From Escherichia coli (GTDB lineage Bacteria; Pseudomonadota; Gammaproteobacteria; Enterobacterales; Enterobacteriaceae): 64,000 nucleotides of DNA. Under the pieces are notes generated by a model. It was not told the origin of the DNA, did not search any database, and was given only the letters and a program-made list of their open reading frames with translations. Shown here in pieces: positions 194 through 6,554 of the stretch. The stretch lies in the NCBI RefSeq assembly GCF_024502345.1, contig NZ_JALDNN010000001.1. One strand, written 5' to 3'. The number at the start of each line of letters is the position of its first letter. The first letter of the stretch is position 1. A program made the translations under genes and the position numbers.

Positions 194-649
194 ATGGCTA
201 ATTACCGTGATTTGTTAGAGCAGGCTGGCGCACGTTACGGTGTGCCAGAAGGGTTGATGACTGCACTGGGTGCCAAGGAGTCTTCTTACAACCCTGCCGC
301 AGTAAGCTCCGCCGGGGCTGTAGGATTGACTCAGGTCATGCCTGGGACATGGCGTGATATGGGTTATACCGATGAGCAAATGCAAAACCCCGAATATCAA
401 GCTGACGCTGGCGCGCGCTATCTGGCAAAGATGTACCAGCAGTTTGGTAACTGGCGTGACGCTCTTCAGGCTTATCACGACGGTCCCGGCAACGTTATGA
501 AGGCAAAGCGTGGTGAATATACGCCAGGACCTGAAGGCCGCGGTTACGTTGATGATCGCTTTGCTCAATGGGCGGGTGACCCGGTGACAGACTCAACAGT
601 CGAACAGCGCGCCACCTCTGCAAAGGTACCTTTGCTGATTGTTATCTGA
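194..649 (+). CDS. Phage lytic transglycosylase (SLT-domain) protein, probably virion/ejection-associated
   Basis: 151-aa ORF with the SLT signature (GAKESSYNPAAVSSAGAVGLTQVMP, catalytic Glu-Ser context); sits in the prophage late region upstream of the mnt/tailspike module. Confidence 0.7.
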   Translation: MANYRDLLEQAGARYGVPEGLMTALGAKESSYNPAAVSSAGAVGLTQVMPGTWRDMGYTDEQMQNPEYQADAGARYLAKMYQQFGNWRDALQAYHDGPGNVMKAKRGEYTPGPEGRGYVDDRFAQWAGDPVTDSTVEQRATSAKVPLLIVI

Positions 650-1163
650 TGTTACTGCTACTGTTGCATGTTACCGTGTTTCCAAATCCTGAATTGCAGT
701 TTGTATATGTGTCAACGCGTGTTGGGTAAGGTTGAGTTATAACAGGCTGGCGCGCTTTTTGCTCGATCGCTTGCATTGTGTTTACAGCCTGATAATTCAA
801 TAAAGCCTGCTGGAATGCTTGGCTTTGTGCTATTTGTTGGGCTTGTTCTTGGCTTTGTAATTGAACATAAAGATTCTGAAGCTCAAGTCTTGCCTGTGCG
901 TCACTTATCTTGCCTTCATCGACACCTTGCCCGAGCATCTTTGCAGCAAGGACATACAGCTTAGGTGTTGGTGCTGATGCCATGCGTGAGTCGTTCTTCA
1001 CACTGGCATCAAGGCAATTAGCCATATCGCTAAGCTTTTGATAGCGTTGTTCGCAACTTGCTTGATAGTCACTTACTTTTGCGCATCCAACCAGCAGAAG
1101 CGGGATAATTAACAGTGATTTTTTCATATGGTTAACTCTCCTTAGTTTTTCACAGGATATCAT
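642..1163 (-). CDS. Prophage-encoded lipoprotein, candidate superinfection-exclusion or moron protein
   Basis: 173-aa ORF with an N-terminal signal peptide and lipobox (MKKSLLIIPLLLVG-C), followed by a Gln-rich, coiled-coil-like segment; RBS-like GGAGAG upstream; lies where sieA sits in P22 (next to mnt). Confidence 0.6.
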   Translation of the reverse strand: MISCEKLRRVNHMKKSLLIIPLLLVGCAKVSDYQASCEQRYQKLSDMANCLDASVKNDSRMASAPTPKLYVLAAKMLGQGVDEGKISDAQARLELQNLYVQLQSQEQAQQIAQSQAFQQALLNYQAVNTMQAIEQKARQPVITQPYPTRVDTYTNCNSGFGNTVTCNSSSNIR

Positions 1164-1197
1164 GAAGGCTATGCCATTTTAGCCGGAAACTAGATTT

Positions 1198-1497
1198 CTA
1201 TGTTTCCTTTTTATTATTGCTATACATGGTCTTAAGCGTTTCAAATACCATTTTCTTAACCATATCAGATTGTTGTTCTGCCATACGCTCTGCATCATCA
1301 ATGTAAACGGATGCAGAGCTTTGTTTAGCCAACGATTCTTCAATCGCTGCAATTATCTCTGAGTTCAGAGATCTGTTATTCATCTTCGCACGCTGCTTAA
1401 TTTTCGCGTGGAGTTCATGCGGAAGTCTCAAGTGAAACTGCGCCTCATCGTATTTGCTGTACATCCTTGATGCCTCACCAGTTGGGTGGAATGGCAT
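1198..1497 (-). CDS. mnt: Mnt-like ribbon-helix-helix repressor (Arc/MetJ superfamily)
   Basis: C-terminal segment [26 protein letters not shown] closely parallels P22 Mnt as I recall it, and the N-terminal RHH motif ([28 protein letters not shown]) is present. The true start may be the internal Met (MYSKYDE, ~1464). Divergent from the tailspike gene. Confidence 0.7.
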
Positions 1498-1584
1498 CGT
1501 AACCTACTGGATAAATACTCAATAGTACCATTTCGGTATGCAATCACATCATGGTTGCATCATATCATCGTCTGGAGCAATGAA

Positions 1585-1725
1585 ATGTCAGATATCACCG
1601 CAAATGTTGTGGTAAGCATGCCTTCGCAACTCTTCACTATGGCGCGTTCTTTTAAAGCGGTTGCCAATGGTAAAATTTATATCGGTAAAATTGACACTGA
1701 CCCGGTAAATCCTGAAAACCAGATT
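1585..1725 (+). pseudogene. P22-type tailspike gene, 5' fragment (head-binding domain), cut off by an IS insertion
   Basis: [47 protein letters not shown] matches the P22 gp9 N-terminus almost residue for residue; the frame then runs into IS-end sequence and stops. Confidence 0.8.
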
Positions 1726-1761
1726 GATCTTGACCCTCCATCTCCGAACAGCTTTTGTATC

Positions 1762-2643
1762 TTAAGTTAACGATGTCCGCTGCCGCCGGTATTCCCTCGG
1801 GGAGTGATATCCCAGCGCGCTGTGCGGGTGGTTTTCATTGTAATGCGTGAACGCTACTGCAAGGTTTCGCAGTGCTGTTCTCACATCCGGTTTTGGCATG
1901 AACGCGATATAGTCTTCTTTCATCGTTTTCACGAACCGTTCGGCCATGCCATTACTCTGCGGGCTGCTCACCGCTGTTGTGCAGGGCTCCAGATTCAGCT
2001 CTCTCGCGAACCTCCGCGTTTCATACGCGGTATACGCTGAACCGTTATCCGTCAGCCACTGCACCGCTGTGTCGGGCAACCTGTCGCCGAAGCGCTTTTC
2101 CACCGACCTCAGCATCACATCCTGCACGGTCGAACTGTCATAGCCTCCCGTGCTTGCTGCCCAGTCTATGGCCTCACGGTCGCAGCAGTCCAGCGCGAAC
2201 GTTACCCGCAGTTTTTCGCCGTTGTCGCAGCCGAACTCGAAGCCATCTGAACACCAGCGCATATCGCTTTCTGCCACCGCTATCTTGCCCTTATGTTCAC
2301 GCTTCGGTCGCTCTGGTTTGTGATGCAACAACAACAGGTTATGCTCGCTCATTATCCTGTAAAGCCGTTTGGCATTCACAGGTGGCTGTCCCTCTGTGCG
2401 ACGTTGCTTGCGCAGGATGCCCCACACGCGTCGATAACCATAACTCGGCATATCGCTGATAATGTTGAGGATAGCCGACAGTATTTCTGCGTCTGCTTCT
2501 TCATTACGCCGGTTACAGCGCCTGTCCTGCCAGTCGGCAGAACGGTTAATCCGCAGTGACAGTTGCGCACGCGACACGCCCATGGTCCGGCTGACCATGG
2601 CTATTCCCCGTCCTTTGGCAACAAGGGCGCGTGCGCTATCCAT
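1762..2643 (-). CDS. IS transposase OrfB (DDE integrase-like catalytic domain), IS2 InsD homologue
   Basis: 293 aa; motifs shared with IS2 InsD ([55 protein letters not shown]). Confidence 0.85.
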
Positions 2644-2996
2644 TTTCGCGACTGACCGTACTCCACGGCTTCTTTCAGGATCTCAACTTCCATCGTTTTC
2701 TTGCCCAGAAGGCGCTGAAGCTCCCGGACCTGCTTCAGAGCAGCAGTAAGCTCAGAAGCAGGAACGACTTCCTCTCCAGCCGCAACGGCGGTGAGGCTGC
2801 CTTCCTGATATTGCTTCTTCCACTTAAACAGCAGGCTGGGCTGGATACCATGCAGGCGGGCGACATGGGAGACATTCATACCCGGCTCCATCGTCTGCTG
2901 GATAATGGCGATCTTCTCCTGAGGAGTTTTACGTTTACGGACTTCTTGCCCTAACAGGATCCCGGTCATCTCAAAATTGGCGTTAGTGTTAGACAT
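2601..2996 (-). CDS. IS transposase OrfA (HTH DNA-binding), IS2 InsC homologue
   Basis: 131 aa; [61 protein letters not shown] closely parallels IS2 InsC; overlaps OrfB in the -1 frame. Confidence 0.85.
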
Positions 2997-3060
2997 ATAT
3001 TCAAGCCTATCTCTTATCTGGAGATACAGCTACTGTCCGGTGTTTCAGGGGGCTACATCA

Positions 3061-5026
3061 TCCTGAAAACCAGATTCAGGTTTATGTGGAGAATGAGGAT
3101 GGTTCTCACGTTCCTGTTTCGCAGCCAATCATCATTAACGCCGCTGGTTATCCTGTATATAACGGACAGATTGCCAAGTTCGTAACTGTGCAAGGCCACT
3201 CTATGGCTGTTTATGATGCATATGGTGCGCAGCAGTTTTATTTCCCTAATGTGCTGAAATACGACCCTGATCAGTTAAGGAAGGAAATTACATCCACAGG
3301 GAAAGGAAAAGGTGCGGATATGATCCCCCTTCAGCAGGGTGGAACAGTTCAAAGTGCTATATATTATGTTACGCCATCATCGGCAGGAATAACTGGTGAT
3401 GGGACAGATGAAGGAGAAAAATTAATCTATTTGCTAAATAGATATGATGGGTATGTTATCGACCTGTCTGGAATGACAATTAAAACAAGCGAGATGATTA
3501 GTGTTGTTTTCAACAAAAAAACAACAATAAGAAATGGAACTATTATCTATACTGGAGCAGTAAGTCCATTTGTTTTAAAAATAACGTGCTCATCCGTTCT
3601 TTCCATAGAGGATATTGCCATTGACGGCAAGAACAATGCTGCAAAGCTACTCTATGCGCTTTCATCCGATAACAACGCAAAAATATCTATTTCAGGCTAT
3701 TCTGGAAGAAACGCTAGGGAAGCAATTGACACAGGATTATCAACTGCTGCATATATTACGGCAGGCTCATTGTTTAGATGGAAAGAGATTAGGCTGTCAG
3801 ATTCCTCAGCTTATGATATTTCAAGCTCAGGTGGTTCTAATGTTGGTCGCGGGTTTATGGTTCAAAACTTTGAATATTGCTATGTTAGGAATATTTCAGT
3901 ATTCCGAGTTGGACCATATCAGGATGCGGATGGGATATATGCATCATCCCCTAACTATTTATCAGCAGTATTTGATATTAGTGATTCGTATTTTGAAGAC
4001 TGCCAGAAGAGATCAGTCAAATCACAGATAATGAACTCTCGGGTGAGCAATATTGTAGAGCGGCGCACACAGGCCTTTGCTGTTGCTGCTGGGCAGTCAG
4101 CAGTAGACTTGCAGGCAGGAGGTTCTCTAGACGGACTTAGTTGCTTCTATGCTGACGGAGCAGCCCCACAGTCAATCGTTTCAGGTGGTCTTGTCAGTGG
4201 AGCACCGACATTTCGAGGTATTTCTTTGCGAAATATTGACGTCAACTGCGAAGATCCGTCAGATATTATCTCTCGTCTGGTATCATTTTATAATAACTCG
4301 CCGAATACATATGATGGTTACATTGCTGAAAATATAAAATGTAATGCCATAATAGAGAATGTTGGATTTCTGTATAGCAATACAGGAAACACAAATTTTA
4401 ATGTATATCTCTTCAAAGAGGTTATCTTCAGAAACATTCAGTCGTCAGGAATGGCAGGAACGGTGCCAACTGCTGTAATTCAAATAAGCAGAGGTTCCTC
4501 TGCGTATGTGAAGGCTATAGTACGGGTGCAAAACCTCAATCTTGGCGATGGAAATATCGCACCATTGTATTATCTTGACCCATTGCCAGGGGTTACAACT
4601 TTTCTTGATGTTTTATTTCGTCAAGTAAGTAATTGCAGAGGGTTTGATACGCTAACTAACGTAAATTCCGATACATCTCAACGCATCTATGCAGTAACTG
4701 CAGACGTAGCTGAAAATGAATCTACAACACTTTTAATACCAATAAAGACAACAAATGGAAAAACGGCAGTAAAAATATCTGTAATGTATAACTCAAACAG
4801 GGATGAGCATGCAGCAAAGCTATTCACAGAAGGATACTGGTTCTTCGGGTTATCATTGCCATATTATATAGAATCAGTCGCTGGAGTAAAAACACAAACA
4901 AACGTTGGATCTATCGTGGTCACAGTTGCTGAAAACAATTTAGTTGTAAAAAAAATCGCTGGAACCACCGCTGCAAGCGGGCGGATGACAGTGATTATTG
5001 AGCATATATCATGCGTGAATATGTAG
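3061..5026 (+). pseudogene. P22-type tailspike gene, 3' portion (rest of head-binding domain plus a divergent beta-helix receptor-binding domain)
   Basis: Resumes …(PENQI)[50 protein letters not shown]… matching P22 gp9 residues ~45-110, then diverges; the six-frame ORF (3086..5026) starts at an internal Met. AT-rich relative to the flanks. Confidence 0.75.
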
Positions 5027-5160: not shown

Positions 5161-6318
5161 CTATGCCACCCTCTCATCAATCCAGTCCGCCCACCACTGC
5201 ATCATTTCTCTGCGCTTATCGAGATACTGAGCATGGTTGTAAATCCCACGCACAGATCCGCCGTTGGCATGTGCCAGTTGCACTTCAATAGCGTCAGCAG
5301 GCCATTCGTGCTCGTTCATAATCGTGCTGAATTCATGTCTGAATCCGTGACCGCTATCCAGACCCTCATAGCCGATTTGTTTGATCACAAGTAGCACCGC
5401 GTTCTCGCAGATTGGCTTCTTCTTATCGTTGCGCCCGGCAAAAACAAATTCTGATACTGGTTTGGTGATGGAGCTTAACGTAGTGAGAAGTTCAACCACC
5501 TGGTCTGACATCGGGACCACATGAATTTTGCGTCCTTTCATCACACTGGCGTCGATGGTGATAATCCTGTTTTCAAAATCGACGTTCTTCCATAGCATAG
5601 AACGAAGCTCTTTCGTTCTTAGGGCTGTGTAGCGTAAAACTTTGGTCGCAATGAGCGATACAATACTTCCTGAAAATGTTGCCAGTGCTTTGTTGAATGC
5701 CGGGATCTGGTCTGCAGGAAGAAACGGGAAGTTCTTCTTGCGGTATCCCTTCATGGCGTCAGCAAGGTCAGGTGCCGGGTTATATTTAGCCCTACCAGTA
5801 ACAATAGCGTAACGGAAAACCTCGCCGCATCTTCTGCGGGCTTTGTTGGCTCTCTCCATTGCGCCGCGATCTTCAAATCTGCGGATTACTTCCAGCAGTT
5901 GCATCGGCTCAATATCCTGAATTTCAAGGCCGCCGATGATGGGTAAAATGTCGTCATCAAACATTTTGGCAAGTTCAGTTGCATAGCCTACTGACCAGAC
6001 TTGCTTCTTGTGCTCGTACCACTCCTTGTAAATCGCACTAAATGAATTGTTGTTAGACGAAGCCTTTTTCGCCTTTACCGGATCGATGCCAACCGAGATG
6101 TCTTTCCTCGCAGTCCATGCCTTATCCCTTGCTTCCTGCAAAGTCATAAGCGGATATTTTCCGACGGTCAGGATTTTCTCCTTACCGTCAATCTTGTAGC
6201 GAAGCTGCCATACCTTTTTCCCGGATACAGGAACATAAAGGTACAGGCCATTACCATCGAGAAGGCGGTATGGTTTTTCTTTCGGCTTTGCTGCTTCAAT
6301 CTGCTTAACGGTGAGCAT
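5161..6318 (-). CDS. intS: Prophage integrase, tyrosine recombinase (IntS / CPS-53 type)
   Basis: Near-identical by eye to E. coli IntS as I recall it (MLTVKQIEAAKPKEKPYRLLDGNGLYLYVPVSGKKVWQLRYKIDGKEK…HGFRHEF…); next to the tRNA. An in-frame upstream ATG at 6354 would give 397 aa; the annotated start is probably the MLTVKQ Met. Confidence 0.9.
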   Translation of the reverse strand: MLTVKQIEAAKPKEKPYRLLDGNGLYLYVPVSGKKVWQLRYKIDGKEKILTVGKYPLMTLQEARDKAWTARKDISVGIDPVKAKKASSNNNSFSAIYKEWYEHKKQVWSVGYATELAKMFDDDILPIIGGLEIQDIEPMQLLEVIRRFEDRGAMERANKARRRCGEVFRYAIVTGRAKYNPAPDLADAMKGYRKKNFPFLPADQIPAFNKALATFSGSIVSLIATKVLRYTALRTKELRSMLWKNVDFENRIITIDASVMKGRKIHVVPMSDQVVELLTTLSSITKPVSEFVFAGRNDKKKPICENAVLLVIKQIGYEGLDSGHGFRHEFSTIMNEHEWPADAIEVQLAHANGGSVRGIYNHAQYLDKRREMMQWWADWIDERVA

Positions 6319-6479
6319 GGGTAAAAATCCGGTGGGTAAAATTATTTTATCCACTTTTTACCCGTCATGGAGTGCGGCTGTCAACGATCTGAAGCGAACC
6401 ATGACGAACTGTTAGTTTCCGGGAGGCTTGATATTCTGGGGATTTTACGGACTGGTACGGATGGGAGCGAACTGATAAA

Positions 6480-6554
6480 TGGTGTCCCCTGCAGGAATCG
6501 AACCTGCAATTAGCCCTTAGGAGGGGCTCGTTATATCCATTTAACTAAGAGGAC
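6480..6554 (-). tRNA. argW: tRNA-Arg (anticodon CCU); prophage attachment site
   Basis: Reverse complement reads GTCCTCTTAGTTAAATGGATATAACGAGCCCCTCCTAAGGGCTAATTGCAGGTTCGATTCCTGCAGGGGACACCA, with a CCT anticodon in the loop, T-arm GGTTCGATTCC and 3' CCA. Confidence 0.9.

What the first reader, a model, noticed from the sequence alone, without database searches (positions are those of the whole stretch)
642..1163. Lipoprotein in the sieA-equivalent prophage position: candidate superinfection-exclusion factor
This 173-aa ORF has a signal peptide and lipobox (LLVGC) and a Gln-rich coiled-coil-like region. It lies directly downstream of the Mnt-like repressor on the same strand, the slot P22 uses for superinfection exclusion (sieA). 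Small phage lipoproteins such as Cor and Llp block receptors; this could be an analogous but unrelated protein expressed from the prophage.
Basis: inference. Interest (0 to 1): 0.55.

Follow-up and report, generated by a model that had tools for sequence, protein, structure and literature searches.

The report
Prophage lipoprotein replacing P22 sieA
This is a real, strongly conserved but uncharacterised lipoprotein gene that P22-like prophages carry in exactly the place where phage P22 keeps its superinfection-exclusion gene sieA, and it is transcribed in lysogens, so it is a good untested candidate for a new envelope-level phage-exclusion factor.

Summary
The ORF is real. Its likely start is the ATG at 1127, giving 161 aa (642-1127, minus strand) rather than 173. 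It encodes a lipoprotein: signal peptide, lipobox LVGC, Ala at +2. A 4-5-helix N-terminal domain carries a conserved Cys pair, followed by a long Gln-rich helix and a disulfide-closed C-terminal beta-hairpin.

It belongs to PHROG 6067 (function unknown) and matches no Pfam, NCBIfam, PADLOC or PDB family. Orthologues occur in P22-like prophages of at least 10 Enterobacterales genera, always between the last ejection-protein gene (gene 16) and the tailspike gene, antisense to the late operon.

- In 13 IMG/VR prophages, 92-98% nucleotide identity to P22 runs through mnt/orf59a and the annotated sieA promoter. It stops about 10 nt before the lipoprotein ATG, so the ORF replaces sieA exactly.
- The two genes never co-occur (0 of 80 and 0 of 31 loci).
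- Published RNA-seq of a 97.5%-identical orthologue (Gally prophage, E. coli LF82) shows lysogen transcription about 5-80-fold above the adjacent late gene.
- dN/dS is about 0.05.

The function is untested. Superinfection exclusion at the envelope is the best-supported inference, with a host-fitness moron as the main rival. The window's own prophage is defective, yet this gene is intact.

The parts
642..1127 (-). Lipoprotein CDS: 161 aa plus stop. Start ATG at 1125-1127, stop TAA at 642-644.
   Evidence: ORF. Start supported by the RBS, by homologues that all begin MKK and by the PGAP annotation of 486 nt in L009. PHROG 6067 full length. dN/dS about 0.05.
1083..1127 (-). Signal peptide with lipobox: residues 1-15, MKKSLLIIPLLLVGC. 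The lipobox LVGC is encoded at 1083-1094. Cys15 is the predicted lipidated residue and Ala16 is at +2.
   Evidence: Read directly from the sequence. Cys15 is invariant in 88 diverse family members. The +2 residue is never Asp in 213 family members.
840..1076 (-). Conserved N-terminal helical domain (about residues 18-95) with the invariant Cys25/Cys38 pair.
   Evidence: Alignments A1 and A3. AlphaFold model ma6e76d2c4341 has pLDDT 94-98 over this region.
753..902 (-). Long helix, residues 76-125. Its distal part (residues 84-125) is 33% Gln.
   Evidence: AlphaFold secondary structure; composition.
645..713 (-). C-terminal beta-hairpin (residues 139-159) closed by the invariant Cys144/Cys154 pair, followed by a short tail.
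   Evidence: The motif T-x-C-x3-G-x4-C is seen across distant family members.
1136..1166 (-). 5' leader block TTCATGATATCCTGTGAAAAACTAAGGAGAG. It includes the RBS (1136-1143) and a TGnTATCCT extended -10-like motif (1154-1162), and is homologous to the sequence just upstream of P22 sieA.
   Evidence: Alignment of upstream regions. P22 reads TTCATGGTATCCTGCACAAAACTAAGGAGG upstream of sieA. Promoter activity is inferred, not shown.
1198..1497 (-). Arc/Mnt-family ribbon-helix-helix repressor gene. PGAP-style start at 1464, giving 88 aa. It lies 70 nt upstream of the lipoprotein gene with no predicted terminator between them.
1564..1591 (-). Sigma-70 promoter-like site upstream of the mnt-like gene (CTGACA-16-GATGAT). 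It is a candidate Pmnt driving mnt plus the lipoprotein gene.
   Evidence: Consensus scan only. The number of sites found equals the chance expectation, so this is weak.
620..635 (.). Palindromic hairpin GCAAAGGTACCTTTGC between the convergent ejection-protein and lipoprotein genes. It is followed by a T-rich run on the plus strand only.

Best explanation
The gene is a prophage accessory ('moron'-type) gene of P22-like phages. It is the alternative occupant of the sieA cassette.

It is transcribed in the lysogen, against the direction of the late operon. Transcription probably comes from the mnt promoter and/or a sieA-like promoter-leader.

[quoted passage not shown] A disulfide-stabilised helical domain would sit under the membrane. 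A roughly 50-residue helix would project a small disulfide-closed hairpin into the periplasm.

The most likely role is superinfection exclusion. The protein would bind a conserved envelope component, or the incoming ejection apparatus. It would block the step at which a superinfecting, probably P22-like, phage crosses the outer membrane and periplasm. This would make it a functional counterpart of the inner-membrane protein SieA.

Shown here: gene reality, lipoprotein features, conserved slot, exact replacement of sieA, mutual exclusivity, purifying selection. Shown by others for a 97.5%-identical orthologue: transcription in lysogens. Inferred: localisation, exclusion function, target.
For: Slot.
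- The gene lies between gene 16 and the tailspike gene, antisense, in phages VSe13 and Gally.
- It also holds in 80 IMG/VR prophages carrying three different gene-16 types.

Exact replacement. In 13 loci, 92-98% identity to P22 runs from mnt/orf59a through the annotated sieA promoter to 7 nt before the sieA start. It ends about 10 nt before the lipoprotein ATG. The window keeps about 30 nt of that leader.

Mutual exclusivity.
- 0 of 80 lipoprotein loci have a P22-SieA hit.
- 0 of 78 have any SieA-like polytopic ORF in the interval.
- 0 of 31 sieA loci have the lipoprotein.

Expression. LF82_138/GALLYPH_13 reads log2(fpkm+5) 6.0-6.3 in LB, 7.9-8.2 in medium and 8.5-10.3 in macrophages, against 3.6-4.15 for the adjacent gene 16 in all conditions (PMC9928086 tables).

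Lipoprotein features. Cys15 and both Cys pairs are invariant in 88 sequences, and no family member has Asp at +2.

Selection. dN/dS is 0.03-0.05.

Precedent. SieA in this slot is an exclusion protein acting on the gp16/gp20 conduit, and only 22 of 66 P22-like phages carry it (PMC10883804).

The window's prophage has lost most of gene 16 and has an IS in the tailspike gene, yet the lipoprotein ORF is intact and 100% identical to alleles in apparently intact prophages.
Against: - No exclusion phenotype has been measured for any family member, and no paper mentions the protein.
- PADLOC has no match.
- Sharing a slot does not prove sharing a function, because moron slots hold unrelated cargo. A second, unrelated lipoprotein (Gally gp14) sits beside this gene in some loci.
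- The authors of the LF82 study did not class the gene as a moron. It was 4.5-fold above background, against their 5-fold cut-off.
- Very strong purifying selection is not what one expects of a protein in an arms race with phage proteins. It fits a conserved host partner, which is equally compatible with a non-defence role.
- Three of 8 sampled distant relatives lie in chromosomal-looking neighbourhoods.
Confidence: 0.42

Rival explanations
1. It is a host-fitness or lysogenic-conversion moron. On this reading the envelope lipoprotein changes outer-membrane or periplasmic properties for the benefit of the lysogen and has no role against phages. Candidate effects are stress, serum or macrophage survival, vesiculation and permeability. 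Lambda Bor is the precedent.
For: - It is transcribed in lysogens and up-regulated in macrophages: log2FC 2.55, q=4.7e-27 at 6 h, with the highest level at 1 h.
- Very strong purifying selection across genera fits a conserved host partner.
- Chromosomal-looking relatives exist outside phages.
- There is no match to any defence-system model.
Against: - It precisely replaces a proven exclusion gene behind the same promoter and is mutually exclusive with it.
- In the LF82 paper the Gally prophage had no detected effect on survival in macrophages (PMC9928086).
- The neighbouring genes mnt, tailspike and gp14/gp17 rise together in macrophages, so the induction is regional rather than specific.
- Half of the sampled distant relatives sit beside genes for large injected phage proteins.
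Confidence: 0.27
2. It is a periplasmic inhibitor ('immunity'-type protein) of a peptidoglycan-degrading activity carried by incoming virions. It would act like T4 Spackle, which blocks the gp5 lysozyme. This is a specific sub-mechanism of exclusion.
For: - Many carrier phages have a lytic transglycosylase domain in the gene-16 protein.
- The protein is a small, disulfide-bonded, helical periplasmic domain.
- One AFDB structural neighbour is annotated 'Lysozyme inhibitor LprI N-terminal domain' at E=7e-7.
- NCBIfam gives a weak sub-threshold hit of one distant member to a 'T6SS immunity periplasmic lipoprotein' model, E=0.007.
Against: - No member of 88, nor P0131, matches Pfam LprI/DUF1311.
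- The gene also accompanies gene-16 proteins with no detected transglycosylase domain. These include P22-type gp16 in 11 or more loci and the Yersinia, Providencia and Pectobacterium prophages with PF26808 only.
- The polyvalent proteins beside distant members show no listed muralytic domain.
Confidence: 0.1
3. It serves the phage's own lytic cycle. Examples would be preventing progeny from adsorbing or ejecting into debris of the lysed cell (as proposed for T5 Llp and Cor), or a lysis or assembly helper. On this reading it does not protect the lysogen.
For: - Llp- and Cor-type lipoproteins are encoded near receptor-binding genes, and this gene lies within 0.5 kb of the tailspike gene.
- It is retained in phages isolated as free virions, VSe13 and 720R6.
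Against: - It is transcribed antisense to the late operon, and in uninduced lysogens while late genes stay at background.
- It is absent from many P22-like phages, including P22 itself, so it is not needed for growth.
- It is not in the lysis cassette, has no i-spanin partner, and Gally has its own Rz.
- It is retained intact in the defective prophage of the window.
Confidence: 0.08
4. It is not a functional gene but a chance or decaying ORF.
For: The prophage in the window is defective.
Against: - It matches a PHROG over its full length.
- dN/dS is about 0.05 over 54 alleles.
- All five Cys are invariant over 88 diverse sequences.
- RNA-seq shows expression of the orthologue.
Confidence: 0.01

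Closest known systems
P22 SieA (superinfection exclusion protein A, types A-C; Leavitt et al. 2024, PMC10883804)
   Same: - It occupies the same genomic slot in P22-like prophages, between gene 16 and gene 9 and antisense to the late operon.
- In 13 loci it has the same promoter and leader.
- It is of similar size (161 vs 164 aa).
- It is expressed from the prophage.
- The two are mutually exclusive occupants.
   Different: - There is no sequence similarity.
- SieA is a polytopic inner-membrane protein with 4 hydrophobic segments and a cytoplasmic FxRYPxEAxxFNK motif.
- This protein has only a cleavable lipoprotein signal peptide and a soluble, disulfide-bonded periplasmic body, probably anchored in the outer membrane.
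- Its function is untested.
T5 Llp and the Cor proteins of T1/phi80/N15 (receptor-blocking outer-membrane lipoproteins)
   Same: It is a small phage-encoded lipoprotein predicted to sit in the inner leaflet of the outer membrane, encoded close to the host-recognition gene.
   Different: - Only the signal peptide aligns to Llp (PDB 8a60, E=0.06, residues 1-30), and no PHROG, Pfam or NCBIfam link exists.
- It is about twice as long, with a helical domain, a long helix and a hairpin instead of Llp's small beta fold (the Llp fold is from my own knowledge).
- P22-like phages use O-antigen plus, for Sf6, OmpA/OmpC rather than FhuA (own knowledge).
- No receptor is known for this protein.
T4 Spackle (Sp), periplasmic inhibitor of the gp5 tail lysozyme
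   Same: It is a small, helical, disulfide-containing periplasmic protein made by a resident phage (the Spackle description is from my own knowledge). Many carrier phages here have a muralytic domain on an ejected protein.
   Different: - No sequence or fold match was found.
- Spackle is not a lipoprotein.
- The gene also occurs with ejection proteins that lack a detected muralytic domain.
Lambda Bor / TraT-type moron lipoproteins
   Same: It is a prophage-borne outer-membrane lipoprotein expressed in lysogens.
   Different: No homology was found; Pfam and NCBIfam scans are negative. Bor sits elsewhere in lambdoid genomes. No serum-resistance data exist for this protein.
PHROG 6067 (function unknown)
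   Same: The match is full-length, 1-161 of 161, E=1.6e-110. This is the family the gene belongs to.
   Different: The family carries no annotation. The wider superfamily found here is not captured by any curated model. It comprises 250 clusters at 50% identity, mostly lipoproteins of 125-140 aa.

Membership tests
Bacterial lipoprotein (Lgt/LspA/Lnt substrate) | N-terminal signal peptide with a basic n-region, a hydrophobic h-region and a lipobox [LVI][ASTVI][GAS]C | tested here: met
   The sequence reads MKKSLLIIPLLLVGC, with the lipobox L-V-G-C at residues 12-15. Cys15 is invariant in 88 diverse members, and 129 of 142 distant members have a lipobox.
Bacterial lipoprotein (Lgt/LspA/Lnt substrate) | Actual acylation and sorting (outer vs inner membrane) | not testable with these tools
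   The only indication is the +2 rule: Ala at +2 here, and Asp at +2 in 0 of 213 family members. This predicts outer-membrane sorting by E. coli rules (established knowledge of Lol avoidance).
SieA (P22-like superinfection exclusion protein, types A-C) | Sequence similarity to SieA, including the FxRYPxEAxxFNK motif | tested here: not met
   BLASTP against P22 SieA finds no alignment at E<=100. tblastn of P22 SieA finds nothing in 80 lipoprotein loci. The motif described in PMC10883804 is absent from the 161-aa sequence by inspection.
SieA (P22-like superinfection exclusion protein, types A-C) | Polytopic inner-membrane topology (4-5 transmembrane helices) | tested here: not met
   P22 SieA gives 4 hydrophobic segments in the same scan. 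By inspection, the lipoprotein's only hydrophobic stretch is the signal peptide (residues 4-14). The rest is predicted as amphipathic or polar helices and a hairpin.
SieA (P22-like superinfection exclusion protein, types A-C) | Location between genes 16 and 9 of a P22-like prophage, with prophage expression | tested here: met
   Location. Orthologue RNA-seq.
SieA (P22-like superinfection exclusion protein, types A-C) | Blocks DNA delivery by P22-like phages when expressed alone | not testable with these tools
   This needs plating and DNA-ejection assays.
Llp/Cor receptor-blocking lipoproteins | Homology to Llp or Cor | tested here: not met
   The profile search against PDB aligns only residues 1-30 (the signal peptide) to T5 Llp 8a60_B, E=0.06. 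No PHROG other than 6067 scores better than E=0.009.
Llp/Cor receptor-blocking lipoproteins | Binds and inactivates the phage's outer-membrane receptor | not testable with these tools
   No receptor is known and no complex prediction was available.
Moron (autonomously expressed prophage accessory gene) | Present or absent among otherwise similar phages, and dispensable for lytic growth | tested here: met
   It is absent from P22 and from 31 sieA-type loci. It is present in 128 IMG/VR loci. Its flanks are mosaic.
Moron (autonomously expressed prophage accessory gene) | Transcribed in the lysogen independently of late genes | tested here: inconclusive
   The orthologue in LF82 is about 5-fold above the adjacent late gene and the prophage background in LB, and 16-80-fold above it in other conditions. 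It fell just under the authors' 5-fold cut-off (70.2 vs 78.1). No data exist for the window's own strain. The promoter assignment rests on consensus matches and homology only.
DUF1311 / LprI N-terminal domain (PF07007) | Significant match to the Pfam model | tested here: not met
   No hit in the query, in 32 members, in 88 members or in P0131. The only link is one AFDB structural neighbour that carries this annotation.
o-spanin (Rz1-type lysis lipoprotein) | Encoded in the lysis cassette, embedded in or next to an i-spanin gene, and expressed late | tested here: not met
   The gene lies between the ejection-protein and tailspike genes, antisense to the late operon. Gally has a separate Rz in its lysis cassette, and the gene is expressed without late transcription.

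The most novel reading that the evidence does not exclude
The lipoprotein founds a new class of periplasm-facing exclusion factors that act on the trans-envelope ejection machinery itself. It would act on the ejected proteins or their passage, rather than on a surface receptor or at the inner membrane.

Such a role would explain three observations.
- It swaps with sieA.
- It is linked to three different gene-16 types.
- In unrelated phages and mobile elements, distant relatives lie convergent with, and 0-19 nt from, genes for giant MuF/polyvalent proteins of the kind that are packaged and injected.

Chromosomal relatives would then be domesticated or ancestral envelope proteins with the same binding module.
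Probability: 0.15. Interest if true: 0.75.

Novelty: new variant of a known kind. Interest (0 to 1): 0.5.

Why it matters
Only about a third of sequenced P22-like phages carry sieA (PMC10883804), and what the others keep in that slot has not been described. This lipoprotein is one answer, and it appears to be common.
- IMG/VR holds 128 confirmed loci for it. The same kind of scan found 32 loci for P22-type sieA, although that scan detects only close relatives of sieA.
- 428 of 5,426 complete E. coli genomes match the 1.6-kb query that contains it, but that query also covers the mnt-like gene and the start of the tailspike gene, so the count is only an upper bound for the lipoprotein.

If it excludes phages, it would do so from the opposite side of the periplasm to SieA. 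That would give a second genetic handle on how the gp7/gp20/gp16 ejection conduit crosses the envelope, which is still poorly understood.

It would also matter for phage therapy and typing of Enterobacterales, because the gene is spread across E. coli, Salmonella phages, Citrobacter, Serratia, Klebsiella aerogenes, Yersinia, Pectobacterium, Proteus, Providencia and Morganella.

If it is instead a host-fitness factor, its induction in macrophages in an adherent-invasive E. coli would be the point of interest.

Tried and rejected
- **Curated family searches.** Pfam was run on the query and on 32 + 88 + 1 relatives. NCBIfam and PADLOC were also run. Nothing was significant. Weak GspK, TraV and 'T6SS immunity lipoprotein' hits lie far below the cut-offs and mostly cover the signal peptide or the Gln-rich helix.
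- **Solved structures by sequence.** PDB searches returned only signal-peptide or coiled-coil noise.
- **First structure model.** The first AlphaFold model (32 sequences, pLDDT 64) gave no Foldseek PDB match.
- **DUF1311/LprI lysozyme-inhibitor idea.** Rejected as a membership claim, because no Pfam hit was found.
- **Spanin or lysis role.** Rejected on position, orientation and expression.
- **Scan with the 88-sequence alignment.** The related-loci scan failed because no conserved stretch was available. It was repeated with the 32-sequence alignment.
- **Exact swap with the window's own arrangement.** I looked for a sieA locus with mnt directly adjacent, matching the window. sieA loci with the same mnt type exist, but they are only about 81% identical and not adjacent. 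The exact-replacement evidence therefore comes from the P22-type arrangement only.
- **Literature.** Searches for the protein, its accession numbers or a P22-like exclusion lipoprotein found nothing.
- **Scans not run.** The genome contigs and metagenome-contig scans were skipped, because source names and encoding contigs already established the taxonomic spread and context.
Full report
**Observation**

The ORF reported at 642-1163 (minus strand, 173 aa) is present. Its N-terminus contains MKKSLLIIPLLLVGC, a textbook lipoprotein signal peptide with the lipobox L-V-G-C. The first 12 codons of the 173-aa reading are unlikely to be translated, for four reasons.
- The sequence AAGGAGAG lies 8 nt upstream of the internal ATG at 1125-1127.
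- All 94 homologues begin at that Met.
- The upstream ATG lies inside a conserved leader.

The gene is therefore 642-1127, 161 aa. An Arc/Mnt-family ribbon-helix-helix gene lies 70 nt upstream on the same strand (1198-1497). No terminator-like site is predicted between the two genes. The Gln-rich stretch is real, at 33% Gln over residues 84-125.

**Is it a real gene?**

Yes, on the following evidence.
- It matches PHROG 6067 (function unknown) end to end, E=1.6e-110.
- It has 94 relatives in the 90%-clustered protein collection, all named 'hypothetical', 'lipoprotein' or, wrongly, 'GspK'. They come from E. coli, Citrobacter, Serratia, Cronobacter, Klebsiella aerogenes, Pectobacterium, Yersinia, Morganella, Providencia, Tatumella and Symbiopectobacterium.
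- Five sequenced phages carry it: Gally, vB_EcoP-720R6, VSe13, MS2 LVA and Proteus phage Brookers.
- Against 54 distinct alleles, dN/dS is 0.03-0.05 while dS reaches 0.65. That is unusually strong constraint for prophage cargo.

**Anatomy**

A profile search of 1.84 billion cluster representatives found 250 clusters at E<=1e-3. Most are lipoproteins of 125-140 aa with the same plan.
- A lipobox.
- A conserved domain of about 80 residues that starts x-Q-x-x-C-E and holds a second Cys 12-13 residues later.
- A variable linker.
- A C-terminal T-x-C-x3-G-x4-C-x2-3 motif.

In an 88-sequence alignment, the five Cys (15, 25, 38, 144, 154) are the only invariant columns. With that alignment, AlphaFold gives a confident model (mean pLDDT 88).
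- Short helices span 18-28, 32-45, 47-51 and 53-70.
- One long helix spans 76-125. Its first part packs on the bundle and its Gln-rich part projects.
- A beta-hairpin spans 139-159.

The residue after the lipid Cys is Ala here and is never Asp in 213 family members. By the E. coli Lol-avoidance rule this predicts an outer-membrane anchor. That is an inference, not a measurement.

No curated family claims the protein.
- Pfam is negative.
- NCBIfam is negative.
- PADLOC is negative.
- PDB sequence searches are negative.

Fold searches find nothing of known function.
- Foldseek against PDB finds nothing at E<=0.001.
- AFDB50 returns family members, one neighbour annotated 'LprI N-terminal domain' and one annotated DUF2799.

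**Genomic context**

The left 6.4 kb of the window is the end of a P22-like prophage. In order it holds:
- the tail of an ejection-protein gene;
- a gene-16-type gene with a lytic transglycosylase domain (194-649);
- the lipoprotein gene;
- the mnt-like gene;
- a tailspike gene (from 1585) interrupted by an IS3-family, IS2-like element (about 1726-3059);
- an integrase gene (5161-6354);
- tRNA-Arg(CCT) (6480-6554).

In P22 the same interval reads gene 16 -> | <- sieA (own promoter) <- orf59a <- mnt | arc -> ant -> gene 9. The lipoprotein gene sits where sieA sits, convergent with gene 16.

That position is conserved widely.
- Phages VSe13 and Gally.
- Morganella and Yersinia ruckeri prophages that have no mnt, arc or ant at all.
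- Providencia and Pectobacterium.
- 80 IMG/VR prophages, out of 128 confirmed loci.

In those 80 loci the gene is always adjacent to the 3' end of gene 16. Gene 16 occurs there in three forms: the P22 type, the VSe13 type, and a 797-aa type with an N-terminal transglycosylase domain. The tailspike-proximal neighbours are mosaic.

**Exact replacement of sieA**

In 13 IMG/VR loci, nucleotide identity of 92-98% to P22 runs from mnt/orf59a through the mnt terminator and the annotated sieA promoter. It extends to 7 nt before the sieA start codon and ends about 10 nt before the lipoprotein ATG. Similarity resumes inside gene 16. In those loci the lipoprotein ORF has been swapped for the sieA ORF behind the same promoter and leader.

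The two genes exclude each other.
- No lipoprotein locus has a P22-SieA hit (0 of 80).
- None has any SieA-like polytopic ORF between the tailspike and lipoprotein genes (0 of 78).
- No sieA locus has the lipoprotein (0 of 31).

The same neighbour sets occur with either gene.

**Expression**

Gally, a prophage of adherent-invasive E. coli LF82, carries a 97.5%-identical orthologue (GALLYPH_13 = LF82_138). The supplementary tables of Misson et al. 2023 (PMC9928086) give the following values in log2(fpkm+5).

| Condition | Lipoprotein orthologue | Adjacent gene 16 |
|---|---|---|
| Stationary LB | 6.29 / 5.96 | 3.6-4.15 in every condition |
| Medium controls | 7.9-8.2 | |
| 1 h in macrophages | 10.3 | |
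| 6 h in macrophages | 8.5-8.7 | |

- In overnight LB, the gene's normalised count (70.2) is second only to the C2 repressor within the prophage.
- That is 4.5 times the prophage median (15.6) and just under the authors' 5-fold moron cut-off (78.1). This is why they wrote that Gally has no morons.
- The lipoprotein gene is expressed above mnt in every condition, so in Gally it has its own promoter.
- This is direct evidence that the family is transcribed in lysogens independently of late genes. It comes from another strain with a different upstream arrangement.

**What it most likely does**

[quoted passage not shown] Escape mutations map to the ejection proteins gp16 and gp20, and only 22 of 66 P22-like phages carry it (PMC10883804). 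The present gene is a lysogen-expressed envelope protein installed under the same control, never together with sieA, and kept intact in a prophage that has lost two virion genes. The simplest reading is that it is a functional alternative to SieA: a superinfection-exclusion factor working from the outer-membrane or periplasmic side. I put this at about 0.4.

The strong purifying selection and the conservation across genera suggest that its partner is a conserved envelope component rather than a fast-evolving phage protein. That fits an Llp/Cor-like mode, binding a host outer-membrane protein from the periplasmic side. It fits a non-defence envelope role equally well, and that is the main rival (about 0.27).

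A Spackle-like inhibitor of the ejected transglycosylase is attractive, but no family or fold evidence supports it. The gene also occurs with gene-16 types that lack a detected muralytic domain (about 0.1).

A lytic-cycle or spanin role is unlikely on orientation, expression and dispensability.

**An unexpected recurrence**

I sampled 8 distant family members on longer contigs.
- Four lie beside genes for giant MuF/polyvalent proteins of 2,483-4,839 aa. Three of these are convergent with a gap of 0-19 nt (L012, L093, L129). The fourth is 2.6 kb away in an element with a small terminase and an MmeI-type restriction enzyme (L011).
- One lies in an integrase-bearing element.
- Three lie among housekeeping genes.

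Polyvalent MuF proteins are thought to be packaged and injected (my own knowledge of the polyvalent-protein literature). The geometry 'lipoprotein gene convergent with the gene for a large injected protein' therefore mirrors the gene-16 arrangement. This may only reflect cargo accumulating at convergent module ends. It is nonetheless the basis of the most novel reading that remains open.

**Novelty and verdict**

Phage-encoded exclusion or moron lipoproteins are a known kind (Llp, Cor, Ltp, Bor). This family is unrelated to all of them, is not in Pfam or NCBIfam, and has no literature.

I rate it a new variant of a known kind with moderate interest (0.5). It is a cheap and well-posed experiment for any laboratory that already runs the SieA assays.

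Noticed in passing
window 194-649 (+); junction about 615-629: The gene-16-type ejection-protein gene is truncated. It holds the first 145 or so codons (the lytic transglycosylase domain) of a 797-aa protein that is intact in L046. A deletion of about 2.3 kb runs between two short similar sequences, CTCTGCA(A/T)AGG..TAC. The identical junction occurs in IMG/VR contig L021. No complete E. coli genome in the collection has it.
   Followed up: yes
window about 1726-3059 (IS); tailspike 1585-1725 and 3060-5026: An IS3-family, IS2-like insertion sequence splits the tailspike gene after its head-binding domain. Its orfA is at 2601-2996 and orfB at 1762-2643, both on the minus strand, and both score below the NCBIfam IS2 cut-offs. 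Together with the gene-16 deletion, this makes the prophage defective, while the mnt and lipoprotein genes stay intact.
   Followed up: partly
window 5161-6354 (-) and 6480-6554 (-): A tyrosine integrase gene lies next to tRNA-Arg(CCT). This is presumably the attachment site and prophage end. The host genome beyond it was not examined.
   Followed up: no
L002 4651-5070 (Gally GALLYPH_14); also about 8 IMG/VR loci: A second, unrelated lipoprotein gene (139 aa, MKRIIGVVAGAILLSGC...) lies between the lipoprotein gene and mnt on the opposite strand in Gally-type prophages. In LF82 RNA-seq it reaches log2(fpkm+5) 9.4-11 in the medium-control and macrophage conditions, which exceeds the lipoprotein studied here in all four, but only 4.8-6.2 in stationary LB. 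It has no family assignment; there is only a weak LEPBI_I2678 hit.
   Followed up: partly
L012 416-811, L093 212-589, L129 617-1015, L011 8001-8390: Distant relatives of the lipoprotein lie next to genes for giant polyvalent proteins of 2,483-4,839 aa carrying MuF_C, ddrB-ParB and ART-PolyVal domains. Three are convergent with gaps of 0-19 nt. This echoes the convergent gene-16 arrangement in P22-like phages.
   Followed up: partly
L039 2550-2795 and L043 5889-6134: In two prophages, an 81-aa ORF with two hydrophobic segments (MEQQQGSPLSLIIMVIFFVFIFF...) lies between the tailspike and lipoprotein genes. It is another small membrane-protein cargo gene in the same slot.
   Followed up: no
window 1486-1600, both strands: There is no arc or ant gene between the mnt-like gene and the tailspike gene. 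Only about 90-120 bp separate them. It is therefore unclear what this Mnt-like repressor controls. The promoter-like site at 1564-1591 (minus strand) overlaps the tailspike start.
   Followed up: no
AFDB A0A1C7W7E9 and A0A521GR68: Two structural neighbours of the model carry the annotations 'Lysozyme inhibitor LprI N-terminal domain' and 'DUF2799'. No family member tested matches the LprI Pfam model. A remote link to DUF1311-type periplasmic helical domains remains possible but unshown.
   Followed up: partly
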